From assembly GCA_038801705.1 (NCBI GenBank), contig JAULTC010000001.1, positions 169,916-233,915 on the forward strand: a DNA stretch of 64,000 nt. The letters run 5' to 3'. Both the position numbers and the translations under genes were made by a program. Within the stretch, counting starts at the first letter, position 1, and the number at the start of each line of letters is the position of its first letter. The notes under the pieces were generated by a model. The model made no database searches, was not told where the DNA came from, and worked only from the letters and a program-made list of their open reading frames with translations. Of the stretch, positions 6,650 to 63,930 are shown piece after piece. This stretch comes from Candidatus Methanosuratincola mesotaenarum (GTDB lineage Archaea; Thermoproteota; Methanomethylicia; Methanomethylicales; Methanomethylicaceae).

Positions 6650-7365
6650 TCACCGTGATTCCAGCGGTGGACATCTCGAGGGGGAAGTGCGTTAGGCTGA
6701 CGAAGGGCAGGCTTGAGTATACTAAGGTCTACTTCGAGGACCCGCTCGAGGCGGCCCAAAAATGGAAGAACGAGGGCGCGGAGTGGATCCATGTGGTAGA
6801 CCTGGATGCGGCGATCGGCGTCGGGAACAACTCGGATCAGATAAAGCGGATAATAAAGGGCGTCGGGGCGGAGGTGAAGGTCGAGGTCGGGGGCGGGATG
6901 AGGGGGGTCGAGAGCGCAAGGGATTACATCCGGGCAGGGGCCAAGAGGGTGATCTTCGGAACCGGCGCCCTCGACGCGAGGCTGATAAGGGCGAGTATCG
7001 AGGAGTTCGGGGCGGACAGGATCATGGCAGCAGTGGATCACATCGCGGGGAGGGTTGCTGTAAAGGGGTGGAAGGAGATGACCGGCATCGACGCCATTCT
7101 CCTGTGTAAGAGGCTTGAAGAGCTTGGCGTGAGGACGTTCATGATGACTGCGATCGATCGGGACGGGACGATGAAGGGGCCAAACATCGAGTACTCTCTT
7201 AAGGCAGTCTCAGAGATCCATGGGGACGTCTTCCTTGCGGGAGGGTTCTCGAGCCTTTCCGATTTGGCGCTGCTCAGGGACGCAAGGGTCGCGGGTGTAA
7301 TCCTAGGGAAGGCGCTGTACGAGGGGGCGTTCACGCTGAAGGAAGCGATGGGGGCGGTTAGGTGA
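6646..7365 (+). CDS. hisA: ProFAR isomerase (HisA)
   Basis: [19 protein letters not shown]-terminus and the (beta/alpha)8 HisA pattern. TTG start overlaps the hisH stop. Confidence 0.9.
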
Positions 7366-8162
7366 CGCTCACGAAGAGGATCATACCCTGCCTTGACGTC
7401 GACAGGGGGAGGGTCGTCAAGGGGATAAGGTTCGTGAACTTGAGGGACGCAGGGGATCCAGTCGAGCAGGCGCTGGAGTACGAGCGCCAAGGGGCGGACG
7501 AGATCGTCTTCCTGGACATCACCGCCTCGTCGGACAACAGGGAGACGGTGATAGACATGGTGAGAAAGACAGCCTACGAGCTCTCGATCCCATTCACAGT
7601 AGGAGGGGGGATAAGGAGCTACGCCGACGCGAGGAGGGTCCTGATGGCAGGGGCGGACAAGGTCTCGCTGAACACGGCAGCTGTCCAGAACCCCAGGCTG
7701 ATCACCGAGGGCGCCGAGATCTTCGGGAGCCAATGCATCGTTGTCGCGATAGACGCGAAGAGAACCGGCGAGAGAAGTTGGGAGGTCTATACGCACGGGG
7801 GGCGGAGGGGTACTAGCATGGATGCTGTCGAATGGGCCATGAAGGCGGAGGAGATGGGCGCAGGCGAGATTCTGCTGACCAGCATGGACTTCGACGGCTC
7901 GAAGGACGGGTATGACCTCGAGCTGACCAGGCTGGTCTCCGAGGGCGTCAACATCCCTGTGATCGCATCGGGAGGGGCTGGGAACCCTGCCCATATATAC
8001 AACGCACTCACCGTGGGTAAGGCAGACGCGGCCCTCGCGGCATCGATATTCCACTACGCAGAGTATACCGTAGGCGAGGTGAAGAGGTACCTGATGGAGA
8101 GGGGGGTGCCGGTCAGGGTCGTGCGACATCCAAATCAAGGAGATAAGGAACGGCCCGCATGA
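7362..8162 (+). CDS. hisF: imidazole glycerol phosphate synthase cyclase subunit (HisF)
   Basis: [16 protein letters not shown] and [13 protein letters not shown] match HisF. It overlaps the hisA end. Confidence 0.9.
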
Positions 8163-8189
8163 TGTTAAGATTGGAGGTGGGTTGATGGT

Positions 8190-8852
8190 ATGGCAGAAAA
8201 TGAAATCATGGAGGGCGTGAGGCTCGAGGCTGACAATATCGAAAAACTGGTCAAGTCTCTCGACTTTGCAAAGCTGGGGGGGATAATCCCCGCAGTGACC
8301 ATTGGGGAAGACGGGAGGGTGCTGATGCTCGCATTCATGAACGAGGAGGCGCTGAGAAGGACGCTCAGCACCGGCATGATGCACTACTGGTCGAGATCCA
8401 GGAAGAAGCTCTGGATGAAGGGTGAGGAGTCTGGACACTACCAATACGTCCTAGGGATCTATGCTGACTGCGACTCCGACTCGCTCCTATTCAAAGTGAG
8501 GCAGGTCGGGAACGTCTGCCACACGGGCGAGAAGACGTGCTTCAACCGACCCTTTGTGAAATACGTGGACAAGACGGACGTGATCAGGGAGCTGGAAGGC
8601 ATCATAAAGGAGAGGATCACAAACCCGCGCGAGGGATCCTATACCTCCAAGATAGCATCTGGGGGGTTAATCAGGGCGGCCAAGAAAGTAGGGGAAGAGG
8701 GGGTTGAGGTGGCGCTCGCAGGAGTCGGGGAGACGAAGGAGAGGATCGTGAGCGAGGCAGCCGATCTGCTCTACCATCTCCTTATACTGCTGCAGATGAA
8801 GGGGGCAGGTATCGAAGACGTCCTAGATGAGCTGAGGAAGCGAAGAAGGTAG
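8190..8852 (+). CDS. hisI: bifunctional phosphoribosyl-AMP cyclohydrolase / phosphoribosyl-ATP pyrophosphatase (HisIE)
   Basis: N-terminal half has the HisI Cys cluster (CDSDSLLF...CHTGEKTCF). C-terminal half is HisE-like (GSYTSKIASGG...LLYHLLILL). Confidence 0.85.
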   Translation: MAENEIMEGVRLEADNIEKLVKSLDFAKLGGIIPAVTIGEDGRVLMLAFMNEEALRRTLSTGMMHYWSRSRKKLWMKGEESGHYQYVLGIYADCDSDSLLFKVRQVGNVCHTGEKTCFNRPFVKYVDKTDVIRELEGIIKERITNPREGSYTSKIASGGLIRAAKKVGEEGVEVALAGVGETKERIVSEAADLLYHLLILLQMKGAGIEDVLDELRKRRR

Positions 8853-8898
8853 AACCAGCTCAGAGACTAGAGCTGACACGCTGGGATCGGACTGCATG

Positions 8899-9924
8899 TC
8901 ACGCATCGTCTGAGAGCCCACTCAGCGACTCCGCCAGCCTGAGCTGCCGCCCCTTCTCCTTCATAGCGATGGTAAGGTCGTAAACCTCGTCGACCGTTTC
9001 GAAGCGGAGCTTTCTGACCTTTTCGAAGTTCCACCCAGTGCACTTCACTGCTGAGACAAACGATGCAAACGAGACCGCCTTTATCCAGCTCTTGGTCCTT
9101 AGGAAGGCTGCAATGAAGCTACCAGACCAGGTGTCCCCTGCTCCAGTGACGTCAACCGCCCTCTTCGTTATCGCCGCGAGCGCGGGTATCAAGTCTGCCG
9201 TTCCATCAGACCTTATGAGTGTCCCAAATTCGCCGAGTGTCAGCACGAGCGTCTTTGTGCGTATTACCCTGATCGCCTCCGATACGACCTCCTTGCCCGT
9301 CAGCGCGTGTAGCTCTCTCTCATTGAGTATGAAGATGTCGGCCATTGATGCCGCGTTTAGTATTGCTTCCCGGTTCACCCTGCTCCCCATGTAGTTTATG
9401 CATGAGTTGACAGAGATCTTCACCTCCGACTCAGAGTCCCTGAGCGCGGATACCATCCGCTCGACCTTGGGCGGGTTCATGGGGGCTATGTGGACAAAGT
9501 CCGCACCCCTCCGAACTGCCTTCAGAAGCATGCGCGTCGTGATTGCTGATGCCAGACCCGGGTAGCTTTCGTGATAGTGGGCATTCCAATCCTGATCGTA
9601 GGATATGTCGAACCTCGTGCTCTTTCCCTTCCTCCTTATGATGAATTCCTGCGGGAAGTCAGCTATGGAGTCCCAGAACCTGTAGTCGTTCCCTACCGCG
9701 GTGACTAGAGATACATTCCTGCAGAGCGTCTTCGCACCATAGGCGGCGTATAGGGCAGCCCCGCCCGGCTGCATCCGCTCGCCGTTAATGTTTCTAATCC
9801 TGTCGACTGATGTATGGCCGACAAAGACGATCTCTGCCAATAGAACCACTTGGTTTAACAGGAGGCGATCTCCTATAAAAAAGCTTGACCTCACCGACCC
9901 CAGTACCCATCCAGCTATCCGCAC
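8899..9924 (-). CDS. PfkB-family carbohydrate/nucleoside kinase (ribokinase-like)
   Basis: C-terminal VDVTGAGDTWSGSFIA is the PfkB DTxGAGD signature. N-terminal FVGHTSVDRI is the ribokinase-fold start, so the true start is probably internal, around 9850. Convergent with hisIE. Confidence 0.75.
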   Translation of the reverse strand: MRIAGWVLGSVRSSFFIGDRLLLNQVVLLAEIVFVGHTSVDRIRNINGERMQPGGAALYAAYGAKTLCRNVSLVTAVGNDYRFWDSIADFPQEFIIRRKGKSTRFDISYDQDWNAHYHESYPGLASAITTRMLLKAVRRGADFVHIAPMNPPKVERMVSALRDSESEVKISVNSCINYMGSRVNREAILNAASMADIFILNERELHALTGKEVVSEAIRVIRTKTLVLTLGEFGTLIRSDGTADLIPALAAITKRAVDVTGAGDTWSGSFIAAFLRTKSWIKAVSFASFVSAVKCTGWNFEKVRKLRFETVDEVYDLTIAMKEKGRQLRLAESLSGLSDDA

Positions 9925-10431
9925 AAGCCAGAATCCTCATACCCGACAGGTCTGAAGACATCCAAGAAACTTGATTAAAGGGGCAGCAGTCCTGTTGATA
10001 ATTTGATTGATTTCCTGACCTATCGGATTCGCCTAGAGGCATTTTCGGATACACCACCAGAGTCAGACTTTTAGGATCCTATTACCAGTTAGGGGAGAAA
10101 TGACCTTCCCCCGCTTTCGCAAGTGGCATCCACTTCTTTTTCCTTCGCGTTACTCTCGCATCACCTCTGCTTGGAGGGTGTTTGGTCGCTTTCTGTATAC
10201 AGGTTCCTGCTTCAATGATTGGTCGAGTCCTCGGAATTTGGAAGTTACAGACCCCGATATCCAGCCTACCCGCCCGCTTGTGCTGTGCGGATCATCGGGT
10301 TTCCACGGGCTTATTCGAGGCAGCCTCTCCCTACCTTTCGGGATAAACTGGTGGGGGAGAAGATATGCTTTCGGCTCACCCCAGTTTTTGCAGGGGAATT
10401 CCTGCCGACAGAGTTAAGGGTTGTTTACCGG

Positions 10432-10543
10432 CAGTTGCACCTGTGTTACCATTGGATGAGGTGGTACAACCCGGCTGCGATTATCACCTGGGCATAGGGA
10501 GTGTCAGTTGCACCTGTGTTACCATTGGATGAGGTGGTACAAC
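10432..10543. repeat. two identical 39-nt direct repeats (10432-10470, 10505-10543) bracketing a 34-nt segment identical to the 3' end of the trxB-like gene
   Basis: Read directly: CAGTTGCACCTGTGTTACCATTGGATGAGGTGGTACAAC occurs twice. The intervening sequence (37 nt counting the CAG shared with the second repeat) equals 28669-28705. See the finding of the same coordinates. Confidence 0.8.
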
Positions 10544-11158
10544 GGTGACTGCAGATTGTTCTGGTTGAGTTTTTATTTTGAAGAATGCAATCGCAATCAG
10601 AAGCATAGAAATCCAGATAAGAAAGAATCCTATCAGAAGTATCGTCAGAAACGCGCCAATGAGCATTGTCAATCCTGCCGTTGAAAACAGACCCACGTTT
10701 GTTTTTGATGAAAGAGTGTTTAATGATCGTCTGACAAAGAGGCTTGCAATTATTACAGAGGCCCACAGGATCAGAATTACTGAAACTAGTCTTGCTAGAA
10801 AAGGATAGAGATCACTAATGCCTATATTTGAAGGGTCAGGCATTAATCCTGGAAGGGTTGACCAGTCGCCGTTCCAGTCCGGAAAGATCTGGTACAGGAA
10901 GTCTGTCAAGGTAGTTAAAAATGAGAGGACAATCACTGCGCCTGCAACCACTGCACCAACGATGCCTACAATCGTCCCATAAAAGAAATTGCTGAAGATC
11001 TTCCTTTCCCTGTAAATACCTGCAAAACCATAAAGGGCGACCAGAACCAGTATCAGGCCTATGAGTGCAATTATTCCCATGTATCCGAATGGCATCACTC
11101 CGATTAACATCAGTATTGTGCCTATGCCGCCTAAGGCCTTATTTGATTCTAAGGTCAT
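10484..11158 (-). CDS. polytopic membrane protein of unknown function; 3' end altered by the 39-nt duplication/insertion
   Basis: 224 aa with about six hydrophobic helices. The present stop codon lies inside the trxB-derived insert. Without the insert the ORF would end ...QVQLPVNNP. Confidence 0.55.
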   Translation of the reverse strand: MTLESNKALGGIGTILMLIGVMPFGYMGIIALIGLILVLVALYGFAGIYRERKIFSNFFYGTIVGIVGAVVAGAVIVLSFLTTLTDFLYQIFPDWNGDWSTLPGLMPDPSNIGISDLYPFLARLVSVILILWASVIIASLFVRRSLNTLSSKTNVGLFSTAGLTMLIGAFLTILLIGFFLIWISMLLIAIAFFKIKTQPEQSAVTVVPPHPMVTQVQLTLPMPR

Positions 11159-11554
11159 CGCAATATACCCAATTTTTCTTCGAGACGGCGCCTTATTTAC
11201 TCATTGGAGCCCACGGCAAGCAACGGCAATCCAAGTCAGCTACATATTGCAAAGCACAATGACCTTAGCGGATTTCAAACCGATTGCATGCAATGTCCAC
11301 TAGTTGATCTGGTAATTCAGCTCGTCCGTGGAAGGCTGTTAAAATCCATCCCCAAACCCAAACCAAGCAGTTGACCGCTTGATGTGGTGCATTTGAGGGC
11401 ATCAGATTTTGACCCCGTACGAATAATCGATGGGCTTTCTGCCACGTAGTTATAAATAACTCCACATCTTTCCAGATAGAACTGTGAATGTGCACTTCAG
11501 ATTGCATATGATGAGGTTATTAATACCAAGAAACAATTCATAGAATAAAGTGTT

Positions 11555-11881
11555 TTGGTAATGCGCAATAAAACTCCTGTCAAGTGCCCCAACTGCGGAT
11601 CGGAGATGACTGGCATTGGAAGGCAGACAATTAGGACGGGGCCGGTAAACGAGGCAATGTGGCTGCTGGTCTACCCGGACGTTGGAGTCCCGGTTGCATT
11701 CGATGCATACGTGTGTGAGTATTGCGGAAAATTCGAGCTGTTTGCGGATGAAAATGCCGTTAAGATGCTGAAGGGGGAATATGCCGGCGACGAATTGGTG
11801 AAGTGCAGTTCTTGTGGAAAGGAGTACATAAAAGAGTACTGGAGATGCCCGTACTGCGGGGCGGAAACGAAAAAAGGTTAG
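11555..11881 (+). CDS. small double zinc-ribbon protein
   Basis: 108 aa with four CxxC pairs: CPNC, CEYC, CSSC, CPYC. TATA-like TTATAAATAA lies about 100 nt upstream. Confidence 0.6.
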   Translation: MVMRNKTPVKCPNCGSEMTGIGRQTIRTGPVNEAMWLLVYPDVGVPVAFDAYVCEYCGKFELFADENAVKMLKGEYAGDELVKCSSCGKEYIKEYWRCPYCGAETKKG

Positions 11882-11936
11882 GGATCGCACTGGACTCGAC
11901 ACATCTGACCACCCTCCAATTCGGATGGAGGCAATG

Positions 11937-12006
11937 CTGACGTACTCCCACGGCTAAAGCCTGTGGGCTTGCCTTCGTTATCCACCTCATGGCCCCATTA
12001 TCGTAA
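11937..12006. repeat. 70-nt intergenic repeat element, copy 1 of 3
   Basis: CTGACGTACTCCCACGGCTAAAGCCTGTGGGCTTGCCTTCGTTATCCACCTCATGGCCCCATTATCGTAA. Two other copies at 26553-26622 and about 50760-50829 differ by no more than 2 nt. Confidence 0.85.
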
Positions 12007-12076
12007 GTAGGGAAGATATGCAACAAAAAGATGTAACATTGTTTCATAAAGCTTTACTTTAATAGCAGCCCAGTTA

Positions 12077-12715
12077 TTGCATGAGGTCACCGGTATGGGA
12101 ATTAGCATAGAGAATAAATTTTCGAGGGAGATCAGGAGCTTCTTTTCGCTTGCAGTAATCAACATCGCATTCAGCGGAATAGCGATGGCGATCGGGGTTT
12201 CCCTGGCAGTCACCAATATCCTAGCGCTCTTGGACGGGTGGTCGGTTATCAACATCGCAGCTTCAGCAGTCGGGATCGCAGCATTCGCCCTTGCGATCAG
12301 ATGGCTCATTGCAGTCGCAGAGCTCCTGAGCGGGGTTGATGATATAAAAGACGAATATTCCAAGGTGAAAGGAAACCAGAGCCCCAAAGCCCTGACGGGG
12401 CTGATAGTCAGGCTGACGGCGCACTACCGTTCAAATAGGCAACTGATATCGAGGCTCATCCTGCTCAGCAGGGCAGCAGGGGTCTGCTTCATAGCCAACG
12501 GCGCTCTCCTCCTCCTGCAGATGGCGCTCAATCTGCCTGCTGATTGGACGGGCATTTTGGCTTCCCTCGCGGCTGCGGCTGTGAACTTCGGCGTGGGGGT
12601 GGCTGGGATATCCATCCCTCACTTTTTCAAGAGGTACTCCTCGTGCTGGGAGGTAAGACTCAAAGAGATCACCCAAGCAGAAGAGGGGCTGTCCGTGATC
12701 GTGGGGAGAGAATAA
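12077..12715 (+). CDS. membrane protein of unknown function
   Basis: 212 aa with four or five hydrophobic segments. Stop overlaps the start (TAATG) of the downstream wHTH gene, suggesting co-transcription. Confidence 0.55.
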   Translation: MHEVTGMGISIENKFSREIRSFFSLAVINIAFSGIAMAIGVSLAVTNILALLDGWSVINIAASAVGIAAFALAIRWLIAVAELLSGVDDIKDEYSKVKGNQSPKALTGLIVRLTAHYRSNRQLISRLILLSRAAGVCFIANGALLLLQMALNLPADWTGILASLAAAAVNFGVGVAGISIPHFFKRYSSCWEVRLKEITQAEEGLSVIVGRE

Positions 12716-17203: not shown

Positions 17204-19263
17204 TCAAGTCGATCAGGCTCAAAAACATCCGGACATATGAGGAGGAGGAAGTCAAGCTGCCCGAAGGGATTATACTTTTCGAGGGTGGCATAGGCGCCGG
17301 CAAGTCGACGCTGCTCCTCGCCATGGAGTTCGCGCTCTTCGGGCTCGGGAACGAGAAGGGGACAACACTGCTGAGCCTCGGTAAGAATTCCGGAAGAGTC
17401 GACCTAACCTTTGAGGTCGGAGGTAAGGAAGTCAGGGTATCGAGGTCGCTGGAGAGGGTGAAGAAGCAGGCTGCGGACGCAATGCACCAAGGGCTTCTCT
17501 TGCCCCAAAGCGTCAGGCAGTACGATTGCTGGATAGAGTACAACGGCGCCCGGACTTCTTACTCCCCGAAGGAGATGAAGGAGCAGGTCCTTAAAATTTT
17601 GAACTACAACGAGCCGACGGACCCTAAGGCAAAGAGTGTCATATTCAGGTACGCGGTCTACACCCCGCAGGAGGAGATGAAGGAGATCCTCTCACAGCCA
17701 CCTGACCTGAGGCTCCAGACGATTAGAAAGGCACTGAGGATCGAAGATTATAAGGTAGCGATGGAGAACGCGAGGGCGATAGCTGCTGACCTGAGGAAGC
17801 AGGCGGAATACACTAGAAAGACCGTGGAGCGCCTCCCGGAGATACGCATGGAGATCAATAAGATCAAAGAGAGGCGCCCTGTTCTCGATGGCAAGTTGGA
17901 GGAGATAATCAGGGAGGCGGAGGCGGTAGATATTGAGCTTGCACGGCTGAAGGGAAGGAGGGAGGAGATCCACTCGGAGCTGCTCCGCTACGCCAAAGAC
18001 GCGAAAGATGTGGAACAGATCGAGGACGACCTTGAAAAGGCGAAGGCTGAGATCGGAAGGCTAGAGAAGGAGATTGCCCAAAACAGGAAGAGGCTGGATG
18101 GGATCCGTGCGCAGATTAAGATACTCGAGTCAGCAAAGGAACCCATGATGTCCGAGGAAGAGGTCGAGGGTTTTCTTGAGGATGCGAAGGCTAGACTTAG
18201 CGAATGCGATGGGCTACTTGGAAAACTCGAGGCTGAGCTGAGCAATATTAGGACACTTGTGATGAATGGGTACTGCCCCACATGCAACAGGCCGATAGAC
18301 GGGGCAGAGTACGAAGCTCACCTCAGGGAGGCAGAGAGGAATTACGAGGATGCAAAAGAGAGACGCGAGGATGCGAAGAAGGAGATACAGGCGCTGGAGG
18401 CGAAGAAGAGGGAGATCATCAAGTACGGAAAGATAAGGGAGCAGATGAATGGGCTCAGGGAACTTGAAACCGAGGTCGAGGACAGGATCTTCGATTGGGA
18501 GGAGAGGCTTGGGAAGGCTAGGCAGAGCGAGGCAGAGCTCTCGGAGAGGAAGGCTAAGGCCCTTGTCGCTGTGGAGAGGTACAGGGCCTTGGAGGAGGAG
18601 TATAGAAAGTGTGACGCAGAGATCAGGAAGGAGGAGAAGGAGAGGGATGGGCATCTGAAGGAGAAGGCGAGGCTAGAGAAGGAGATCGCGGTGGACGATG
18701 AGAGGCTCGGGGAGCTCGAGGGGGAGGCTGAGAGGCTCGAAGCCGAGAAGAAAAGGGGGGAGAAACTTGGCTGGTACTCTGAGTGGCTGATGAAGTACTT
18801 TGCGGTGGCGCTGGAGAGGATAGAGCTAACCGTGATGAACACGGTGAGGATGGAATTCGAGGAGGAGTTCGGCAGGTGGTTCTTGTACCTTGTAGAGGAT
18901 CCGTCGAAGGGGGTCAGGATCGACGAGGACTTTACGCCGTTGGTCACGCAGGACTCGTACGAGCAGGACTTGAACAATTTGAGCGGTGGGGAGAGGACCT
19001 CGCTAGCGCTTGCGTACAGGCTCGCGCTGAACAGAGTCGTCCAGAGAAACTCGAAGACAGGGGCGGACCTGTTGATCCTGGACGAGCCGACGGACGGGTT
19101 CAGCAAGGATCAGATAGGGAAGATGGGTGACCTGCTCAGGGAGCTCGGGCTGAGGCAGGCGGTGATCGTATCACATGAGAGGGAGCTCGAGGGTGCAGTG
19201 GACCACATATTCAGGATACAGAAGGATGGCGGGAAGTCGAAGGTGTATGCAGCATCAGGCTGA
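17188..19263 (+). CDS. rad50: Rad50 ATPase
   Basis: Walker A GGIGAGKST, long coiled coil, zinc hook CPTC, ABC signature LSGGERTSLALA, Walker B LLILDE. Confidence 0.9.
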   Translation: MHETIIKSIRLKNIRTYEEEEVKLPEGIILFEGGIGAGKSTLLLAMEFALFGLGNEKGTTLLSLGKNSGRVDLTFEVGGKEVRVSRSLERVKKQAADAMHQGLLLPQSVRQYDCWIEYNGARTSYSPKEMKEQVLKILNYNEPTDPKAKSVIFRYAVYTPQEEMKEILSQPPDLRLQTIRKALRIEDYKVAMENARAIAADLRKQAEYTRKTVERLPEIRMEINKIKERRPVLDGKLEEIIREAEAVDIELARLKGRREEIHSELLRYAKDAKDVEQIEDDLEKAKAEIGRLEKEIAQNRKRLDGIRAQIKILESAKEPMMSEEEVEGFLEDAKARLSECDGLLGKLEAELSNIRTLVMNGYCPTCNRPIDGAEYEAHLREAERNYEDAKERREDAKKEIQALEAKKREIIKYGKIREQMNGLRELETEVEDRIFDWEERLGKARQSEAELSERKAKALVAVERYRALEEEYRKCDAEIRKEEKERDGHLKEKARLEKEIAVDDERLGELEGEAERLEAEKKRGEKLGWYSEWLMKYFAVALERIELTVMNTVRMEFEEEFGRWFLYLVEDPSKGVRIDEDFTPLVTQDSYEQDLNNLSGGERTSLALAYRLALNRVVQRNSKTGADLLILDEPTDGFSKDQIGKMGDLLRELGLRQAVIVSHERELEGAVDHIFRIQKDGGKSKVYAASG
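19150..19250. repeat. 101-bp direct repeat, copy A (the 3' end of rad50); copy B at 20784-20884
   Basis: CTGAGGCAGGCGGTGATCGTATCACATGAG...AAGGTGTATGC is identical at both sites. The two copies bracket 19251-20783. Confidence 0.85.
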
Positions 19264-19514
19264 GCCAGGACATCAATGATGTTTGATGTAGTTAAATCCA
19301 AGATTAGGATGGAAGTGGGAGACAGATTTATCAAAAACCACAATATTCTTGCCGTTCAGCACCTCCTCAGGTTTCATCCACCAAGGATTTTTGTACATTG
19401 ATCAATTAATCAATCCCGCTGGAATGGGCATTTCTATTGTCTACTGGAATTTTATTGACAGCTTATTTATAAACGAACAGCCTGTCACTGCATTGACCCA
19501 GCTGTCTTGAACAA

Positions 19515-20705
19515 TTGAGGATCTTGGACTCAGTGCGTGAGAGGCAGATCATGATAATCACAGGGCTCAGGAGGACGGGCAAGACTACCCTCATGTACCA
19601 GGCGATCGAGAGGCTGCTTGAGACTGAGGATCCGAGGAAGGTGCTCTACTTCTCCTTCGAGGAGCCGTCTCCTGGGCCCAAGGAAGTCGAGCACTATGAG
19701 AAGGGGGTCCTGAGGGAGCCCTTTGAGGACGCAGGGAGGATCTACGTCTTCTTTGATGAGGTCCAGTACGCCAGCGGCTGGGCATCGACCATTAAGCGGT
19801 TCTATGACCTATACCCAAACCTTAAGTTCTTCGTCTCCGGTTCGTCCTCGCTACTGCTCTCAAAGGAGGCGCTGGAGAGGCTGGCAGGGAGGTTCTTCTT
19901 CCTCGAGCTGAAACCCCTGACTTTTTTTGAATTTCTGGAGATGAAGGGGGCTGAGGTTGGGAGGCTGGAAGGATCCAAGCGTAGGGCGGAGATCCTCTTC
20001 TCGGAGTACCTGATGAAGTCAGGGTTCCCCGAGCTCGCTGGTTGGGGGGACGAGGCGAAGATCGCGGAGTACATCAGGAGCGTGGTGGTGGACAGGGCGA
20101 TCCTGAGGGACATACCGGTGATCTTCGGGAGCAGGGACATCGAGCTGTCCGAGAGGCTGATGGGGTTGATACTCCCGAACCCCGGGATGATTGCAAACGT
20201 CAACGCGCTATCCGAGAGCCTCGGGAGGAGCAGGATCACCGTCTCGAACTACCTGAGGTACATCGAAGCTTCCATGCTTGTTAGGTCTCTCTCTAACTTC
20301 AGGCCGGCGATCCTCTCCTCGTCCAGGAAGCTGAGGAAGGTCTACCCGGCGGCGCCCTCACTCATCTTTGCCTACGACAGGGAGGCTTTCAAGGAGAGCG
20401 CAGGGGCTGTGCTCGAGACGTACGCTGTGGGCGCACTTGGAGCCAGGCATTATTTCAGGGAGGGTAGAAAGGAGGTAGACATGATCCTGAAGGGAGGGAC
20501 TGGCGGAAAGGAGATCCTGCCCGTGGAGGTCAAGACGAGCGTGGGCGAGAGGGACTTGAGGAAGTTTTCTGGGCTGGTGGAGTATGTGGGTGCGAGGAGA
20601 GGCATAATGATCAGTCTCAACCAAGCGTTTAGCAGCGGCAATGTCGAGGTGTACCCAGCCTACTATGCCGAGAGGATCTTCCAACATGAAGCCACAAGGG
20701 AATGA
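19515..20705 (+). CDS. COG1373-type AAA+ ATPase with C-terminal DUF4143 (PD-(D/E)xK nuclease-like) domain
   Basis: Walker A GLRRTGKTT and Walker B VFFDEVQ. C-terminal EVDMILK...LPVEVK is a D...ExK nuclease-like motif. Preceded by an AT-rich promoter region. Confidence 0.8.
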   Translation: MRILDSVRERQIMIITGLRRTGKTTLMYQAIERLLETEDPRKVLYFSFEEPSPGPKEVEHYEKGVLREPFEDAGRIYVFFDEVQYASGWASTIKRFYDLYPNLKFFVSGSSSLLLSKEALERLAGRFFFLELKPLTFFEFLEMKGAEVGRLEGSKRRAEILFSEYLMKSGFPELAGWGDEAKIAEYIRSVVVDRAILRDIPVIFGSRDIELSERLMGLILPNPGMIANVNALSESLGRSRITVSNYLRYIEASMLVRSLSNFRPAILSSSRKLRKVYPAAPSLIFAYDREAFKESAGAVLETYAVGALGARHYFREGRKEVDMILKGGTGGKEILPVEVKTSVGERDLRKFSGLVEYVGARRGIMISLNQAFSSGNVEVYPAYYAERIFQHEATRE

Positions 20706-20783
20706 GGCGGCCGCTTGCTCTAATCATCTGCAAAAGCGCTCATAGGACTAGCCAGCTCATGGTTCCAGAATAGATGCAGATGG

Positions 20784-20884
20784 CTGAGGCAGGCGGTGAT
20801 CGTATCACATGAGAGGGAGCTCGAGGGTGCAGTGGACCACATATTCAGGATACAGAAGGATGGCGGGAAGTCGAAGGTGTATGC
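20784..20884. repeat. 101-bp direct repeat, copy B (orphan duplicate of the rad50 3' end)
   Basis: Identical to 19150-19250 but not joined to any rad50 coding sequence. Confidence 0.85.
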
Positions 20885-21055
20885 GGTGACAATGGCGGGT
20901 AGGACGGGATGGAATTGGATGTTAATAATAATGAGAAAAGAAAGGGTAAGAGGTGCCCAGAATCCATTCTGAAAGATTATTCGATGGGTCCTGATGCGCC
21001 TTGTGGCAAATAAAGAGCTGCTCAGCAGCACTGGACCGGATCTATGTGCCGCGCG

Positions 21056-26552: not shown

Positions 26553-26622
26553 TCTGACGTACTCTCACGGCTGAAGCCTGTGGGCTTGCCTTCGTTATCC
26601 ACCTCATGGCCCCATTATCGTA
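26553..26622. repeat. 70-nt intergenic repeat element, copy 2 of 3 (2 substitutions)
   Basis: Same orientation and same ends as copy 1; differs at two positions (C to T, A to G). Confidence 0.85.
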
Positions 26623-26815
26623 ACTTCGAGTTGACTTCGATATACTCGATAATGCGGCGTAGCTCGTCGGCAAACTTACCGTATGCCAATGTCGCCACCT
26701 TCGTATACCTTGATATGGTCAACCAGTTCAATCAACACTTCCCTTGTCAGCTTGAATAAAATCCATCAGCGTGTAATGCTCCCTCCATTTCGACACTTCT
26801 GATTTTTTTCTCTGT

Positions 26816-28598: not shown

Positions 28599-29549
28599 TT
28601 AATACAACATCACGATCGGCTTCTTTTTTATATAGCTGTAAGCCGTAAGCGCTGCTGCTGCCCCCTGACCGGCTGCGATTATCACCTGGGCATAGGGAGT
28701 GTCAGTGATGTCCCCTGCTGCGAAGAGCCCTTCGCAGCTGGTTCTTCCAAACTTGTCGGTTATTACCTTGCCCGCAGGATCCCTCTTGACGAGGTGCTCC
28801 ACATAATCGAGTTTGACGTCCCTCCCGATGTCTAGGAAGAGCGTATCGACCTTGAACTCCTGCTCGAGCCCGGTCTTCAAATTTTTTACCACGACCGACT
28901 CAAGGCATACGCCACCTTTCATTTCAATTATCACGGTATTCAGGAGGAGCTCGACATTTGGGATCGCCTTCACACGTACCAAGGTCGCCTCGTCTCCCCT
29001 GAACTCCTCCCTGCGGTGTATAAGGTAAACCTTCGACGCCTTGTAGGAAAGGAGCTCTGCCCTCTGCAGTGCGGTGTTCCCGCCTCCAACAATAGCTACG
29101 GTTTTTCCGGCCATCCGATCGAGATCGCACTTGAGCGAGATATTCACGCCCCTCCCCAGAAGCTGGTCTTCCCCTGGGACGCATAGCTTCCTCGGCTTTC
29201 TTCCCCCCGTCACTATGACCGCCCTCCCATAAAAGACGCCGGCTGTGCTATGAACACGGAAGAGGTCTCCATCTTTCTCGATCCTTTTGACCTCGGCCGT
29301 CACGAACTCCGCCCCGCTTATCCTTGCCTGGTTTTCAAAGGCTGCAGCCAACTTAATTCCGTCAGTCTCCAGGTACCCCAAGTAGTTATCGATGTGCTCG
29401 GTCTGGAGGATCTGGCCGCCGATGTCCATACTTAGTACTAGCGTGTCCAGCAGCCTCTTCCTTGCATAAACTGCAGCAGCAAGACCGGCCGGTCCTGCGC
29501 CGACAATGACAACATCATAGGCAAAAATATGCGCCACCACCGAGATCAT
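28599..29549 (-). CDS. thioredoxin-reductase-family flavoprotein with non-canonical active site (SxxC instead of CxxC)
   Basis: FAD motif VVIVGAGPAGL, NAD(P) motif IVGGGNTA, and TrxR C-terminus GDITDTPYAQVIIAAGQG. By gap-free alignment to E. coli TrxB, the CATC position reads SLKC. Confidence 0.75.
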   Translation of the reverse strand: MISVVAHIFAYDVVIVGAGPAGLAAAVYARKRLLDTLVLSMDIGGQILQTEHIDNYLGYLETDGIKLAAAFENQARISGAEFVTAEVKRIEKDGDLFRVHSTAGVFYGRAVIVTGGRKPRKLCVPGEDQLLGRGVNISLKCDLDRMAGKTVAIVGGGNTALQRAELLSYKASKVYLIHRREEFRGDEATLVRVKAIPNVELLLNTVIIEMKGGVCLESVVVKNLKTGLEQEFKVDTLFLDIGRDVKLDYVEHLVKRDPAGKVITDKFGRTSCEGLFAAGDITDTPYAQVIIAAGQGAAAALTAYSYIKKKPIVMLY

Positions 29550-42021: not shown

Positions 42022-42490
42022 TCAAACATGATCGGAGGTCGTCTCGCCGATCCTCCTGACCTTAGTCCAAGAGTGCTCCCTTTTGAAAAGCACATCAAAG
42101 AGGGCTTTGATAAGGAAGAAGTCTATAAGATGCTTGTAGCCAAAGACGAAGAATGGGGAGTAGAGAACTAGGCGCCTCTCTTCCTCGTCGATCTCAACAG
42201 CAAGAAGGCTCAGAAGGAACTGCAGGAAGATGAAGACCGAAAACATCACTAGCACTGGGAGATATACCCCCTGGTAAATCGATATAAAAGCAGAAACCCA
42301 GACAGCTACTCCGGCGAAGGGTAAAGCTGCCATCGTCAGCAGTACGAACGGAAAGGCCACTCGGTGCAGAAATCAATACTTGGGGTTTGAAGGCATCCTG
42401 TGTTTCCATAATGTCTGGAAGTTTCCGCTGTACCACCTCATCCTCTGCCTGTACAGGTCGCGCATGTTGTACCGCAGATCCTCGTCGTAT
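42022..42490 (-). pseudogene. GT2-family processive glycosyltransferase remnant (C-terminal part only, interrupted)
   Basis: Fragment 42374-42490 encodes ...YDEDLRYNMRDLYRQRMRWYSGNFQTLW. It contains the Q(Q/R)xRW GT2 motif and ends at a stop. A different frame then continues as the TM-rich C-terminus (42022-42360, ...YKHLIDFFLIKALFDVLFKREHSWTKVRR). No N-terminal catalytic half is present upstream. Confidence 0.6.
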
Positions 42491-50759: not shown

Positions 50760-50829
50760 CTGACGTACTCCCACGGCTAAAGCCTGTGGGCTTGCCTTCG
50801 TTATCCACCTCATGGCCCCATTATCGTAA
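50760..50829. repeat. 70-nt intergenic repeat element, copy 3 of 3
   Basis: Identical to copy 1. Lies between an ABC ATPase gene and the LEA14-like gene. Confidence 0.85.
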
Positions 50830-56755: not shown

Positions 56756-58126
56756 ATGGTTTTCAAAATGAGCGAAAAGGAAAGAGCATACCTGATTAAA
56801 GAGATAGATTCCCTCAGGAAAGAGATCGAGGGGAGGCTCGTGCCCTTGGAGAGGATCTCACCAGGGATCCCGGCAACATTCATCTCTGTTGGCGGTGGCG
56901 AGCTTGGAGACCTGGCAACCACGGCAGCGGGGAGGCGGTTTGGCGGGGCAAGGGGCGGGATCGTCTCTGTTGCCTTCGACAAGTACCACGGCTTCCCGGC
57001 ACAGGACGCCGCAGACTATTCAGAGGTCTTCGACATGATGGATGGGGACCAGCTAGAGGGGAAGATAAAAAAGTACGTCCCTGATCCGCGCGCCCCGCAT
57101 GCGATATACCTTGAGGTGGAGCGGATCGACACCAAGAGGGCATACAAGCTCGGGATGGAAGAGGGATACAGGGTCATGTCCACCCCCTATGGGCCGCTCG
57201 TCTGCATGGACAGGCACGCGACGAAGCTGATGTTCGACAAACTCGGCCTCAACATGGCGCCATGGGCGTACGCGGACTCCGAGGTGGGCGTCCAGGAGGC
57301 GGCTGAGAAATTCGGGCTGCCAGTCATAGTCAAGCCAGTGATGACCTCGAGCGGGCACGGCACATCCATAGTCAGGACGGCAAAGGAGCTCAAGGAGAGC
57401 TACAAGCACTCGGTCGAGCATGCGAGGGGTGTTGGCGACGAGGTGATCGTCGAGAAGTACCTCCCGGAGCTCAAGGAAGGGGGAACCGAGATTACGCAGA
57501 TCGTCGTCAGGCACTTCAATACCGAAGGGAAGATCGTGAGCACCTGCCTGCCCCCGATAGAGCACAGGAGACCTGGTGCGACTTACCATGAGAGCTGGCT
57601 TCCCTCGACGATCTCCGAGGCGGCTGCCTCGAAGTGCAGGGAGGGGGCCATGAAGATCGCGGACTTTATGGGCGGCATTGGCATATATGCAGTCGAGCAG
57701 TTCGTGATCGGCGACAAGGTCTACAACAACGAGGTCGCAAACCGCCCGCATGACACCGGTCTGGTCACGAGGTGGATGCTCAATATGGACGAGGGCGCAC
57801 TCCAGCTGGTCTCCACGCTGGGAATGCCCGTCGATCAGTCGATGGTCGAGCTCTCGCGCCACGGTGTCTTTGGAGTCGCGCATGTCGTCCTGGCGCCCGA
57901 GGGCGTGAAGGAGGGGGCTACAGTCCAAGAGTTCAACCTGAAGGGGTTGCACGCAGGGCTCGGGGAAGACCTGAAGGGGGACCTCTGGATCTTCGGGAAG
58001 CCGACGGCGTATCCTGGTAGGAGGATGGGGCTGGCATTCGCATATGCAATCGAGCTTGACAGGGCGAGGGTAGACGCGGAGAGGATGGCGCACCTGGCAG
58101 AGGCACAGTTTGCTTACAAGGAGTGA
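56756..58126 (+). CDS. purT: formate-dependent GAR transformylase (PurT, ATP-grasp)
   Basis: IVKPVMTSSGHG, ESW and NRPHDTGLVT (PurT-specific PHDTG versus PurK HNSGH). Collinear with E. coli PurT from about residue 40 on. N-terminal 30-40 aa may be an over-extension (internal GTG near 56850). Confidence 0.75.
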   Translation: MVFKMSEKERAYLIKEIDSLRKEIEGRLVPLERISPGIPATFISVGGGELGDLATTAAGRRFGGARGGIVSVAFDKYHGFPAQDAADYSEVFDMMDGDQLEGKIKKYVPDPRAPHAIYLEVERIDTKRAYKLGMEEGYRVMSTPYGPLVCMDRHATKLMFDKLGLNMAPWAYADSEVGVQEAAEKFGLPVIVKPVMTSSGHGTSIVRTAKELKESYKHSVEHARGVGDEVIVEKYLPELKEGGTEITQIVVRHFNTEGKIVSTCLPPIEHRRPGATYHESWLPSTISEAAASKCREGAMKIADFMGGIGIYAVEQFVIGDKVYNNEVANRPHDTGLVTRWMLNMDEGALQLVSTLGMPVDQSMVELSRHGVFGVAHVVLAPEGVKEGATVQEFNLKGLHAGLGEDLKGDLWIFGKPTAYPGRRMGLAFAYAIELDRARVDAERMAHLAEAQFAYKE

Positions 58127-58149
58127 TGGGGACAGGAGGATAGAGGCGC

Positions 58150-58584
58150 ATGCCGAAGGTGTCAGTGATTGTTGGGTCCAAGTCCGACGAGGAACTCGGG
58201 ACGAACGTGAAGGAGACGCTCAGCGAGTATGGGGTGGATGTGGACCTCCAGGTTATATCTGCACACCGGGATCCTGAGAGGCTGGAGGCTTATGTGAAGG
58301 GATCAGACTCGGAGGTTTTCGTCGCTGTAGCTGGGCTTGCAGCGGCACTGCCTGGCGTGATCGCGTCGAAGACAACGAAGCCAGTGATAGGGGTTCCCAG
58401 GGAGGTTAGGCTTGGGGGTCTAGACGCGTTGCTCTCAATGGTCCAGATGCCCCCGGGTGTGCCAGTCGCGACGGTCGGCATAGACAACTGGAAGAACGCC
58501 GCGATACTTGCAGTCGAGATACTCGCGCTCAAGTACCCGGGCCTCATGGAAAGGCTTGAGGGGGCAAGGGGGATGAGGTCTTGA
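58150..58584 (+). CDS. purE: N5-CAIR mutase / AIR carboxylase catalytic subunit
   Basis: KVSVIVGSKSD...VAGLAAALPGV. Confidence 0.9.
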   Translation: MPKVSVIVGSKSDEELGTNVKETLSEYGVDVDLQVISAHRDPERLEAYVKGSDSEVFVAVAGLAAALPGVIASKTTKPVIGVPREVRLGGLDALLSMVQMPPGVPVATVGIDNWKNAAILAVEILALKYPGLMERLEGARGMRS

Positions 58585-58844
58585 TGTTCCTGGTAAAAGC
58601 TGAGGTGGGCCTTAAGCGGGGCCACTTCGATCCGGAGGGGGACGTTGTGGCAAAGTCGCTGAGGGACCTGGGATTCAGTGTGGGGTCGGTCAGGGTGAGC
58701 AAGGCATACACGATCGAGGTCGATGCCCGTGACGCCGCAGAGGCAAAGGCACTCGCGGAGGAGATGTGCAGGAAGCTCCTGGCAAACCCGACGAAGGACG
58801 ACTTCATGGTGGAGGTCCTACTTATTGAGGGAAGGACTGATTAG
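58581..58844 (+). CDS. purS: FGAM synthase PurS subunit
   Basis: 87 aa; MFLVKAEVGLK...DPEG pattern. Confidence 0.85.
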   Translation: MMFLVKAEVGLKRGHFDPEGDVVAKSLRDLGFSVGSVRVSKAYTIEVDARDAAEAKALAEEMCRKLLANPTKDDFMVEVLLIEGRTD

Positions 58845-61167: not shown

Positions 61168-61961
61168 TGGACCTGAGGAAGGCTAGGGCCTGCATACTGA
61201 GGGTGGGTGGAACGAACTGCGACGCAGAGGTGAGGGTGGCGCTGGAGGAGCTTGGACTCAGGTCAGATGTGCTTCACATGAACTGGCTGGAGAAGGGGAG
61301 ACTCTCAGAGTACCAGCTCCTCGTCTTCCCTGGGGGGTTCTCATACGGCGACTACGTGAGGGCGGGGGCAGTCTGGGGAAAGAAGGTCTTGACCAGGATC
61401 AGGAGGGACCTGGAGAGGTTCGTTGAGGACGGGAGGCTTGTGATGGGGATCTGCAACGGGTTCCAGGTCCTCGTCGAGGCGGGGGTCCTGCCCGGAGGCG
61501 ACGGCTCATTCTCCACCACCCCTAGGGCTGTGCTGGCGAACAACAAATCGGCGAAGTACGAGTGCAGGTGGGTTTTTCTCAGGGGTGAGGGGAGCCAAAC
61601 CCCCTTCGCCCGCAGGGTAGGCAATGGGGAGACCCTGAGGGTGCCGGTCGGCCACGGCGAAGGTCGGTTCCTCTCGGAATCGGAGGGGGTGCTGCAGGAG
61701 CTGATCCGCAGCAACAGAGTGGTCTTTAGGTATTCCAGACCTTCTGGCGAGCCTGCTAAGGGGGCATACCCATTCAACCCGAACGGATCCTCCTACGATA
61801 TCGCGGCCATCTGCAACCGGGATGGGAACGTTATGGGCATGATGCCCCACCCAGAGAGGGCGTTCTTCGGCTGGCAAGCGGTAGGATACGGCGGTCCCCA
61901 AGGGCCGGCGGATGGGAGGAAGATCTTCGAGGGGATAATTGACTACATAATGGAGCTCTGA
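61167..61961 (+). CDS. purQ: FGAM synthase I glutaminase subunit (PurQ)
   Basis: Class-I GATase: GICNGFQVL catalytic Cys, HGEGRF. Confidence 0.9.
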   Translation: MDLRKARACILRVGGTNCDAEVRVALEELGLRSDVLHMNWLEKGRLSEYQLLVFPGGFSYGDYVRAGAVWGKKVLTRIRRDLERFVEDGRLVMGICNGFQVLVEAGVLPGGDGSFSTTPRAVLANNKSAKYECRWVFLRGEGSQTPFARRVGNGETLRVPVGHGEGRFLSESEGVLQELIRSNRVVFRYSRPSGEPAKGAYPFNPNGSSYDIAAICNRDGNVMGMMPHPERAFFGWQAVGYGGPQGPADGRKIFEGIIDYIMEL

Positions 61962-62353
61962 CCGTGCTCGGAGTAAACGTCCTCCTTTGGATTCTCAGAG
62001 AAGTAGTTATCCAGAACCTCGATCAGTACCTTGAGCGGCTTCACGCCGACTATCCTTGCCACCTTCCGCCCTTCCCTGAAAAGGAGGATGGTAGGCACCG
62101 ACATCACACCCAGGCGGTTTGCCAAAGTGCTGGTCCCTACATTTACCTTGCCGAAAGAGACGTCCTGGCGGAGGCTTGCTAGCTCCCCGAATATCATCAA
62201 TAGCATCCTGCAGGGCATGCACGACCCGCTCCAGAAGAGCACGGCCGCGTATTTCGCGCCTGCAATGAACCTGCCAAAATTCCGATCATCGAGGTCCAAG
62301 GGCTGCGCCCCCTGTCCCTTTCCATCGTCATCAACTTTCTCATCCCCCGGCAT
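61943..62353 (-). CDS. thioredoxin-fold protein with CMPC active site
   Basis: ...FWSGSCMPCRM... is a CxxC in Trx position, followed by a cis-Pro (SVPT) region. N-terminal about 30 aa acidic extension. Confidence 0.7.
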   Translation of the reverse strand: MPGDEKVDDDGKGQGAQPLDLDDRNFGRFIAGAKYAAVLFWSGSCMPCRMLLMIFGELASLRQDVSFGKVNVGTSTLANRLGVMSVPTILLFREGRKVARIVGVKPLKVLIEVLDNYFSENPKEDVYSEHGQSSIM

Positions 62354-63113: not shown

Positions 63114-63226
63114 AATGATAATTCGACTACCTAGTAAATAAGCGCAGTGCGTGCCTCAAGGCGTTGGTTGGGAAGGGGGTTTCAGAAAATCATATAATTA
63201 GCTCATTGCAGCTTTACTTGTAAAAG

Positions 63227-63805: not shown

Positions 63806-63809
63806 GAGG

Positions 63810-63827: not shown

Positions 63828-63930
63828 AATTACCTTTATCGAGGTTGGGATTCCTGAGAGTTCGTGAACTGCCCTCGCTTAGCAAGGGGAATTCTCGCCG
63901 AAGCGGCTAAAGGGCTGTACCGTATGCCTT

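What the first reader, a model, noticed from the sequence alone, without database searches (positions are those of the whole stretch)
10432..10543. CRISPR-like minimal array: two identical 39-nt repeats around a spacer copied from the trxB-like gene 18 kb away
CAGTTGCACCTGTGTTACCATTGGATGAGGTGGTACAAC occurs at 10432-10470 and 10505-10543. The intervening 34 nt (37 nt including the CAG shared with repeat 2) is identical to 28669-28705, the 3' coding end (..YAQVIIAAGQG..) of the TrxR-like gene in the same window. Repeat and spacer lengths fall in the CRISPR range, and the repeat ends are partly complementary (GTTGCACC...GGTGGTACAAC). There are only two repeats, no leader and no cas genes in the window. 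The structure sits inside the 3' end of a membrane-protein gene, which now terminates in the insert. Alternatives are a template-switch or repair scar or a spacer-like capture event. A self-derived 37-mer bracketed by a perfect 39-nt duplication is an unusual structure.
Basis: seen in the sequence. Interest (0 to 1): 0.65.

Follow-up and report, generated by a model that had tools for sequence, protein, structure and literature searches.

The report
Duplication-plus-copied-patch mutation scar, not CRISPR
The "mini-CRISPR" is a real, inherited 73-base insertion at the end of an archaeal membrane-protein gene, but its junctions point to a DNA polymerase that switched templates during replication or repair, so it is an ordinary if tidy mutational scar rather than an immune array.

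Summary
An exact 39-nt duplication (10432-10470, 10505-10543) brackets 34 nt that, with the next 4 nt, exactly match 28669-28706 in a thioredoxin-reductase-like gene 18.2 kb away. It is not an artefact: every junction appears in independent assemblies of three other sequencing runs, in two strains about 99.7% identical, and one strain has an SNP in repeat copy 1.

The CRISPR reading is not supported. The repeat is the coding sequence of the variable C-terminal tail of a DUF996 membrane protein. It occurs nowhere else, matches no known repeat family, has no cas gene nearby, and its "spacer" is self DNA.

The copied 38-mer starts with CCGG(C) and ends with CAGT, and the target carries CCGG|CAGT contiguously at the left edge of the duplication (chance about 2e-5). 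The structure therefore reads as a 43-nt tandem duplication with a 30-nt templated patch inserted at CCGG^CAGT in the second copy. That is the signature of microhomology-guided template switching, not of an integrase.

Off-target Cas1-Cas2 integration remains a low-probability rival (about 4%), because the host's real CRISPR repeat length could not be obtained. Interest is low.

The parts
10428..10431 (.). A = CCGG, the last 4 nt of the left flank. It is identical to the first 4 nt of the insert (5 nt, CCGGC, counting 10432). This is the microhomology for entry into the donor.
10432..10470 (.). Repeat copy 1 (B = CAGT plus R' = 35 nt). It now lies downstream of the DUF996 stop codon. It carries an A>G SNP at 10448 in the second strain.
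10471..10504 (.). Insert copied from the TrxR-like gene (A = CCGG plus D = 30 nt). Identity to the donor continues through 10508 (CAGT, shared with copy 2). It supplies the new stop codon of DUF996 (TCA on the + strand at 10484-10486).
10505..10543 (.). Repeat copy 2, which still encodes ...VVPPHPMVTQVQL of the DUF996 tail.
10544..10553 (.). Right flank GGTGACTGC. GGTG and ACTGC pair with CACC (10438-10441) and GCAGT (10431-10435), giving an imperfect hairpin that encloses R'. GGTGAC is also the hexamer that follows the second copy of the 103-nt duplication at 20885.
10484..11158 (-). DUF996 membrane-protein gene (224 aa). Its last 6 codons and its stop codon come from the insert.
28669..28706 (.). 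Donor 38-mer CCGG-D-CAGT, in the same orientation as the copy. It encodes ...TDTPYAQVIIAAGQ... on the minus strand, and the donor gene is intact.
28599..29549 (-). Thioredoxin-reductase-like flavoprotein gene (Pyr_redox_2), the source of the copied patch.

Best explanation
This is a mutational scar made by a DNA polymerase that switched templates during replication or break repair. Write the pre-event target as L-A-B-R'-y, with A=CCGG, B=CAGT, R'=35 nt and y=GGTGAC..., and the donor in the TrxR-like gene as A-D-B, with D=30 nt. The present allele is then L-A-B-R'-A-D-B-R'-y. The most economical path has four steps. (1) A growing + strand reached the end of R'. (2) It re-primed 43 nt upstream without homology, which created the duplication. 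(3) After copying CCGG(C) it hopped to the CCGGC of the donor 18.2 kb away and copied 30 nt plus CAGT. (4) It returned through CAGT to the target and continued. Equivalent variants are a 43-nt tandem duplication followed later by the microhomology-flanked 30-nt patch, or fill-in of a staggered break with one excursion to the donor. What is shown: the sequence architecture, the exact identities, the two microhomologies, the intact same-orientation donor, and inheritance in two strains. What is inferred: the order of the switches, the polymerase or repair pathway, and any role of the weak hairpin or of a lesion at ^GGTGAC. The consequence is small: the last 5 residues of a variable proline-rich tail are replaced by 6 others.
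For: The copied 38-mer starts with CCGG(C) and ends with CAGT, and the target has CCGG|CAGT contiguous at the left edge of the duplicated block. Only 2.35e-5 of random 38-mers from the window do this. The donor is unchanged, in direct orientation, in cis at 18.2 kb. The junction R'|CCGG has no homology, as is common for one joint of multi-switch events. In its ancestral context the switch point lies at the base of an imperfect inverted repeat (DNA fold -9.8 kcal/mol, z=-1.8). The event is a one-off: no other ectopic patch of 17 nt or more exists in 64 kb. The affected protein tail is low-complexity and variable in 45 homologues, so the change would be tolerated. The structure is inherited in two strains 99.7-99.8% identical, with the two copies beginning to diverge (one SNP in copy 1), as expected for a neutral scar.
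Against: One of the three joints is blunt, so the path needs either a homology-free jump or a separate earlier duplication. The unit length (73 nt), duplication length (35-39 nt) and insert length (34-38 nt) fall in the CRISPR range, which is a coincidence under this model. No pre-event allele (N) or intermediate (pure 43-nt duplication) was found in any dataset, and related species lack the gene at this position, so the ancestral state is reconstructed and not observed. The hairpin is only marginally better than shuffled sequence (7 of 200 shuffles fold at least as well). Long-range template switching is poorly documented in archaea.
Confidence: 0.8

Rival explanations
1. Off-target (ectopic) spacer integration by the host Cas1-Cas2 integrase, giving a nascent 'neo-CRISPR' unit. 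A 34-38-nt prespacer cut from the cell's own TrxR-like gene was inserted by two staggered transesterifications 35-39 nt apart into the DUF996 gene. Gap filling then duplicated the intervening target.
For: The architecture (perfect target duplication of repeat-like length flanking a spacer-length insert) is what off-target integration produces in E. coli. Circumstantial natural cases have been reported (Nivala et al. 2018, as described in PMC6698737, PMC11788318 and bioRxiv 10.1101/148544). P. furiosus Cas1-Cas2 also integrates at non-CRISPR sites. Self-derived spacers are expected for unprimed acquisition. The lengths sum to 73 nt, a typical archaeal repeat-plus-spacer unit.
Against: Integrase joining needs no homology, yet both ends of the copied segment match the 8-mer CCGGCAGT at the edge of the duplication (about 2e-5 by chance). 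No cas gene lies in the window or just beyond it. The 39-mer resembles no Rfam CRISPR-DR family and no array with matching termini in any Methanomethylicia representative. The 19 arrays found elsewhere share at most 11 of 26 internal positions. Only one such unit exists in 64 kb.
Confidence: 0.04
2. End joining of a broken chromosome with physical capture of a DNA fragment. Two overlapping ends, from a staggered break or from two genome copies of a polyploid cell, both retained the 39-43-nt segment. A free fragment of the TrxR-like gene was ligated between them, blunt on one side and through CAGT annealing on the other.
For: One blunt joint and one 4-nt microhomology joint are typical of alternative end joining. 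The HerA-NurA-Mre11-Rad50 end-processing operon lies 2 kb away, so the organism processes double-strand breaks.
Against: This model leaves the CCGG(C) match between the insert start and the left flank as a 1/256-1/1024 coincidence. It needs a 38-bp free fragment with exactly those ends. Ku-type end joining is uncommon in archaea, and none was seen in the window (established knowledge; one search shows no such hit).
Confidence: 0.1
3. A functional two-repeat CRISPR mini-array, or another repeat-bounded small-RNA gene, that guides an effector to the TrxR-like gene.
For: Repeat and spacer sizes are in the CRISPR range. Mini-arrays with one or two spacers are known on archaeal viruses (established knowledge).
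Against: The repeat is coding sequence used once in the genome window. It has no significant hairpin of its own (z -0.1 and -0.8), no leader, no cas genes and no Rfam match. Transcription with DUF996 would give RNA of the same sense as the TrxR-like mRNA. Copy 1 has already acquired an SNP in one strain, so there is no purifying selection on repeat identity. A self-targeting spacer would be autoimmune.
Confidence: 0.01
4. Assembly or sequencing artefact (chimeric join in the MAG).
For: The window comes from a metagenome-assembled genome, and short perfect repeats are classic misassembly sites.
Against: All three novel junctions are present in contigs assembled independently from SRR17347038 and SRR11866716. 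The break points in SRR25293830 match a k=31 simulation of the duplicated allele. The two strains differ by SNPs, including one inside copy 1. No k-mer path could create ACAAC|CCGG without reads containing it.
Confidence: 0.01

Closest known systems
Microhomology-mediated template switching (FoSTeS/MMBIR-type complex rearrangements; templated insertions at tandem-duplication junctions)
   Same: A short exact copy of a cis sequence tens of kb away sits at the junction of a small tandem duplication. There are 4-5-nt microhomologies at the switch points, the donor is left intact, orientation is preserved, and it is a one-off event.
   Different: The scale is very small (43-nt duplication, 30-nt patch). 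One joint has no homology. The host is an archaeon (Methanomethylicia), for which such events are hardly described. The pathway and polymerase are unknown.
Off-target Cas1-Cas2 spacer integration ('neo-CRISPR' loci; Nivala, Shipman and Church 2018)
   Same: A perfect target duplication of repeat-like length flanks a spacer-length insert at a non-CRISPR site, and the insert is taken from the cell's own DNA.
   Different: The junctions here show homology between both ends of the donor segment and the target, which integrase chemistry neither needs nor predicts. No cas genes or cognate array could be linked. The duplicated sequence shows no resemblance to any known repeat.
Canonical CRISPR arrays and viral mini-arrays
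   Same: Two identical direct repeats of 39 nt are separated by a 34-nt unique segment.
   Different: The repeat is protein-coding and occurs only here. There is no leader, no cas, no third repeat and no structured repeat, the spacer is self DNA, and the copies drift apart in one strain.
Polymerase-theta-type templated insertions at end-joining scars (eukaryotic TMEJ)
   Same: Short stretches copied from elsewhere are inserted at a repair junction, and priming and re-annealing use 2-6-nt microhomology.
   Different: Archaea have no Pol theta, and TMEJ usually accompanies deletions, whereas here a duplication is retained.

Membership tests
CRISPR array (canonical or mini-array) | Direct repeats of about 23-50 nt separated by unique spacers of similar length | tested here: met
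   Two exact 39-nt repeats and one 34-nt spacer, which is the minimum possible.
CRISPR array (canonical or mini-array) | The repeat is a dedicated non-coding sequence that recurs (three or more copies, or other arrays) or belongs to a known repeat family | tested here: not met
   There are only two copies in 64 kb at up to 3 mismatches. The repeat encodes VVPPHPMVTQVQL of DUF996. There is no Rfam CRISPR-DR match at E<=10 and no related repeat among GTDB representatives.
CRISPR array (canonical or mini-array) | Associated cas genes | tested here: not met
   No Cas family appears among the PADLOC hits of 62 window ORFs (only the top 25 of 42 families are listed), and none in the Pfam-annotated neighbours out to the contig end.
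CRISPR array (canonical or mini-array) | Leader next to the first repeat | tested here: inconclusive
   One side is the DUF996 coding sequence and the other is GC-balanced non-coding DNA with no AT-rich tract. Archaeal promoters are not covered by the tools.
CRISPR array (canonical or mini-array) | Spacers of foreign (mobile-element) origin | tested here: not met
   The spacer is an exact copy of the host's own TrxR-like gene.
CRISPR array (canonical or mini-array) | Transcription and processing into crRNA | not testable with these tools
   No RNA data are available.
Off-target Cas1-Cas2 integration (neo-CRISPR) | The target duplication equals the native repeat length of the host's CRISPR system | not testable with these tools
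   The MAG is not among the searchable genome representatives, and the host arrays could not be retrieved.
Off-target Cas1-Cas2 integration (neo-CRISPR) | The host encodes Cas1-Cas2 | not testable with these tools
   None in the 64-kb window. The remaining roughly 245 kb of the contig and the other contigs were not readable.
Off-target Cas1-Cas2 integration (neo-CRISPR) | Homology-independent joining, so junction homology should be at chance level | tested here: not met
   There are 5-nt and 4-nt matches between both ends of the copied segment and the contiguous CCGGCAGT at the duplication edge, with a chance of 2.35e-5.
Off-target Cas1-Cas2 integration (neo-CRISPR) | The integration site mimics leader-repeat junction or repeat motifs | tested here: inconclusive
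   No array with GTTGCA...ACAAC 37-nt repeats was found in any Methanomethylicia representative, and the 19 arrays found elsewhere are unrelated internally. The host's own repeat is unknown.
Microhomology-mediated template switching | The inserted segment is an exact copy of another locus of the same genome, and the donor is unchanged | tested here: met
   38/38 identity to 28669-28706, with the donor ORF intact.
Microhomology-mediated template switching | Short microhomology at the switch points | tested here: met
   CCGGC (5 nt) at entry and CAGT (4 nt) at return. The third joint is blunt.
Microhomology-mediated template switching | The donor is in cis, within tens of kb, and strand polarity is preserved | tested here: met
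   The donor is 18,198 nt away on the same strand (D10).
Microhomology-mediated template switching | A stall-prone secondary structure or lesion at the switch site | tested here: inconclusive
   An imperfect hairpin has its base at CCGG|CAGT, z=-1.8. The shared ^GGTGAC with a second duplication is suggestive only.

The most novel reading that the evidence does not exclude
The unit is a natural 'neo-CRISPR' birth event. The archaeon's Cas1-Cas2 integrated a self-derived prespacer into a protein-coding gene, duplicating 35-39 nt of target. The resulting proto-array has been inherited through strain divergence. The junction microhomologies would then be coincidental, or would reflect an unrecognised homology preference of this integrase. 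A second, even more speculative reading links this event and the 103-nt duplication at rad50 to a common initiating nick at ^GGTGAC, or to the machinery that places AAA_14/DUF4143 ATPase cassettes between long target duplications.
Probability: 0.04. Interest if true: 0.7.

Novelty: new member of a known kind. Interest (0 to 1): 0.2.

Why it matters
The main value is as a caution. Two perfect repeats of CRISPR-like size around a spacer-sized insert can arise from ordinary polymerase template switching. Junction microhomology is a simple test that separates such scars from integrase products, which matters when scanning genomes for orphan or nascent CRISPR arrays. The locus is also a clean, fully resolved natural example of a multi-switch templated insertion in an uncultured methanogen-related archaeon (Methanomethylicia), where replication and repair errors are almost undocumented. 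It also serves as a strain marker across at least four public datasets.

Tried and rejected
This was wrong. The left-hand contigs (L030, L031) show that the duplication is present and that an SNP in copy 1 stopped the two copies from collapsing in the graph.

2. Using the dispersed 70-nt element D1 as a probe to sample this genome in genome contigs gave no hit, so the MAG is not a GTDB representative and its CRISPR content could not be reached.

3. A degenerate two-unit search (GTTGCA-N26-ACAAC, spacer 30-42) found 19 unrelated arrays and none in Methanomethylicia.

4. Several exact-protein look-ups found nothing on record: HisG, HisIE, PfkB with the NCBI start, and P0175 on a 510-kb contig.

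5. The Nivala 2018 paper itself is not held, so its content is cited only through papers that describe it.

6. Literature searches for the accession numbers and for CRISPR in Methanosuratincola/Verstraetearchaeota gave nothing usable.

7. The partial inverted match to the repeat at 42429-42458 is not a paralogue.

8. Related species have other genes in the PfkB-NurA interval, so there is no outgroup for the pre-insertion allele.

9. The repeat's own hairpin is not better than shuffled sequence.

Full report
OBSERVATION. CAGTTGCACCTGTGTTACCATTGGATGAGGTGGTACAAC occurs at 10432-10470 and 10505-10543 and nowhere else at up to 3 mismatches, and no shuffle of the window produced a match. The 34 nt between the copies, plus the first 4 nt of copy 2 (10471-10508), are identical to 28669-28706. 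An exhaustive k-mer scan shows that exact repeats of 17 nt or more are very rare in this window. Apart from the two components of this finding it found only a 103-nt duplication near rad50, a dispersed 70-nt element, and one 17-mer. The donor lies in the 3' part of a 316-aa Pyr_redox_2 (thioredoxin-reductase-like) ORF at 28599-29549(-), which is intact. The target is the 3' end of a DUF996 membrane-protein gene at 10484-11158(-), which now terminates inside the insert. Deleting the 73 nt restores an ORF ending ...VQLPVNNP* in place of ...VQLTLPMPR*.

SOURCE AND REALITY OF THE STRUCTURE. The window is part of contig JACIVP010000001.1 (309,867 nt) of NCBI MAG GCA_014361455.1, labelled Candidatus Methanosuratus/Methanosuratincola sp., an archaeon of the Methanomethylicia. 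Independent Logan assemblies contain the same locus.

- L027 (SRR17347038, also in one more sample) equals window 10479-11966 and carries insert - copy 2 - right flank.
- L030 (SRR17347038) and L031 (SRR11866716) are colinear with window 6879/8377-10500. They read through left flank - CCGG - copy 1 - CCGG - insert.
- L028 (SRR25293830) ends at 10514, which is where a k=31 de Bruijn graph must break if the 39-mer is present twice.

L030 and L031 differ from the window by 7-8 transitions (99.7-99.8% identity). One of these, A>G at 10448, lies inside copy 1. I had briefly concluded from contig lengths that one run carried the insert without the duplication. The left-hand contigs showed this to be wrong, because the SNP in copy 1 simply prevents k-mer collapse. 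The structure is therefore genuine, is present in two slightly diverged strains, and predates their split. No pre-insertion allele exists in the 15-billion-protein collection: the cluster has a single member and the next homologue is 65% identical. Related species have different genes in this interval.

THE DECISIVE DETAIL. CAGT is shared between the end of the donor match and the start of the repeat, so the event can be read as duplication/insert lengths from 39/34 to 35/38. The insert also begins with CCGG(C), and the same CCGG(C) immediately precedes copy 1. Write A=CCGG, B=CAGT, R'=the remaining 35 nt, D=the 30 internal nt of the insert and y=GGTGAC.... The donor is then A-D-B, the reconstructed target is L-A-B-R'-y, and the present allele is L-A-B-R'-A-D-B-R'-y. 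Both ends of the copied segment therefore match one contiguous 8-mer, CCGG|CAGT, which lies exactly at the edge of the duplicated block. Only 2.35e-5 of random 38-mers drawn from the window have this property. The remaining joint (ACAAC|CCGG) has no homology. The allele thus reads naturally as a 43-nt tandem duplication (A-B-R' twice) with a 30-nt patch copied from the TrxR-like gene between A and B of the second copy.

MECHANISM. Homology of 4-5 nt at the points where synthesis leaves and re-enters a template is the hallmark of polymerase template switching, as in FoSTeS/MMBIR-type events and templated insertions at duplication junctions (established knowledge of those pathways). The simplest path has four steps. 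A growing + strand reaches the end of R'. It re-primes 43 nt upstream at a blunt joint. After CCGG(C) it hops to the donor's CCGGC 18.2 kb downstream on the same strand and copies D plus CAGT. It then returns through CAGT and continues. Two variants fit the same sequence: duplication first and patch later, or fill-in of a staggered break with one excursion. I cannot separate them. In the ancestral context GCAGT-TG-CACC...GGTG-ACTGC forms an imperfect hairpin enclosing R', with its left base at CCGG|CAGT (-9.8 kcal/mol, z=-1.8, 7 of 200 shuffles as good). This could have stalled synthesis there, but the signal is weak. The phenotypic effect is probably negligible, because the DUF996 C-terminus is a variable proline-rich tail in all 45 homologues inspected. 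Copy 1, now non-coding, has begun to drift in one strain.

WHY NOT CRISPR. The closest interesting precedent is off-target Cas1-Cas2 integration. It duplicates a repeat-length stretch of target around a spacer-length insert and can seed 'neo-CRISPR' loci (Nivala et al. 2018, as described in PMC6698737, PMC11788318 and bioRxiv 10.1101/148544). The sizes here would fit such an event. Several results argue against it.

- Integrase transesterification does not use homology, so the CCGG/CAGT pattern would be a coincidence of order 1e-5 to 1e-4, even allowing for post-hoc inspection.
- The 39-mer is coding sequence and has no significant hairpin of its own (z -0.1 and -0.8).
- It matches no Rfam family even at E<=10.
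- No cas gene is detectable among 62 window ORFs or in the neighbours out to the contig end.
- A search of 185,579 species representatives for arrays with 37-nt GTTGCA...ACAAC repeats found 19 arrays in unrelated organisms. None shares more than 11 of 26 internal positions with the 39-mer, and none is in Methanomethylicia.

I could not obtain the host's own CRISPR repeat length. That is the one test that could exclude, or revive, the integrase model, so I leave it at about 4%. A functional mini-array is less likely still. The spacer is self DNA. Transcription with DUF996 would give RNA of the same sense as the TrxR-like mRNA. Repeat identity is also not being maintained in strain 2.

SIDE OBSERVATIONS. 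A second structure of the same outward shape lies 9 kb away. A perfect 103-nt copy of the rad50 3' end (19148-19250) recurs at 20782-20884, and the two copies bracket a 1531-nt segment with a single AAA_14/DUF4143 ATPase gene. It is confirmed in SRR25293830 (L006 mapped to the window). Homologues of this ATPase are about 60% identical across very different archaeal phyla. In 3 of 61 further metagenomic loci the gene is likewise bracketed by long direct repeats (63, 118 and 227 nt, about 90% identical, each with a different sequence). A related species has a Rad50 of identical length with no ATPase gene downstream. This suggests that the sequence after copy 1 is native and copy 2 is the ectopic one, so it is unclear whether this is a target duplication of a mobile cassette or another copied patch. 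Both structures end at the same hexamer, ^GGTGAC (P about 3e-4 per comparison). I record this as unexplained.

VERDICT. The CRISPR interpretation is not supported. The best explanation is a microhomology-guided template-switch scar: a small tandem duplication with a templated patch. It is a new instance of a known kind of mutation, of low general interest, and useful mainly as a caution for orphan-CRISPR detection.

Noticed in passing
window 19148-20884: A perfect 103-nt direct duplication of the rad50 3' end (19148-19250 = 20782-20884) brackets a 1531-nt segment with one AAA_14/DUF4143 ATPase gene (19524-20705). That gene lacks about 33 conserved N-terminal residues relative to its homologues. 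Homologues are about 60% identical across DPANN, Nitrososphaerota, Bathyarchaeia and Asgard archaea. In 3 of 61 other metagenomic loci (L037, L057, L106) the gene is also bracketed by long direct repeats (118, 227 and 63 nt, about 90% identical, all with different sequences). This may be a mobile single-gene cassette with long variable target duplications. Alternatively, since a relative's Rad50 has the same length as the current one, copy 2 may be an ectopic copied patch.
   Followed up: partly
window 10544-10549 and 20885-20890: Both duplication structures are followed immediately by the same hexamer GGTGAC (R2|GGTGACTGCAG and X2|GGTGACAATGG). The chance is about 3e-4 per comparison, and the hexamer occurs 15 times on the + strand of the window. 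A common initiating nick or stall site is conceivable but untested.
   Followed up: partly
window 11937-12006, 26554-26623, 50760-50829: A sharply bounded element of about 70 nt (CTGACGTACTCCCACGGCTAAAGCC...CCCCATTATCGTAA) is present three times at 97-100% identity. All copies are intergenic and in the same orientation, with unrelated flanks. It has no Rfam match, and its 28-nt core is absent from all GTDB species representatives. It could be a MITE-like element or a small-RNA gene family.
   Followed up: partly
window 9925-12715 compared with L112, L113, L114: The interval between PfkB and the NurA-HerA-Mre11-Rad50 operon is a variable island. This genome has DUF996 plus a zinc-ribbon protein there. 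One related species has a glycosyl-hydrolase-like gene. Ca. Methanosuratincola petrocarbonis-type genomes have two BrxC/BrxD-like ATPases and a DEAD/Cas3-like_C helicase, which looks like a defence island.
   Followed up: no
window 6879-10500 and 56865-64000 compared with L030, L031, L004, L005: At least two strains of this organism, 99.6-99.8% identical and differing here only by transitions, occur across public runs SRR11866716, SRR17347038 and SRR25293830. SRR25293830 appears to contain both strains, because its left contig ends at 10419, which is SNP 10389 plus 30.
   Followed up: partly
window 9925-10430: About 500 nt between the PfkB start and the DUF996 3' end have no called gene, no Rfam match and only short overlapping ORFs. 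The stretch contains a GCAGGGGAATTCCTGC palindrome. Its function is unknown.
   Followed up: no
window-wide: One window ORF matches the PADLOC candidate-defence family PDC-S01 strongly (E=3.8e-57). Others match the mad3/mad8, AriA and LmuB-like ATPase models. Most are probably the HerA/Rad50 repair ATPases and the DUF4143 ATPase, but the PDC-S01 hit was not assigned to a gene.
   Followed up: no
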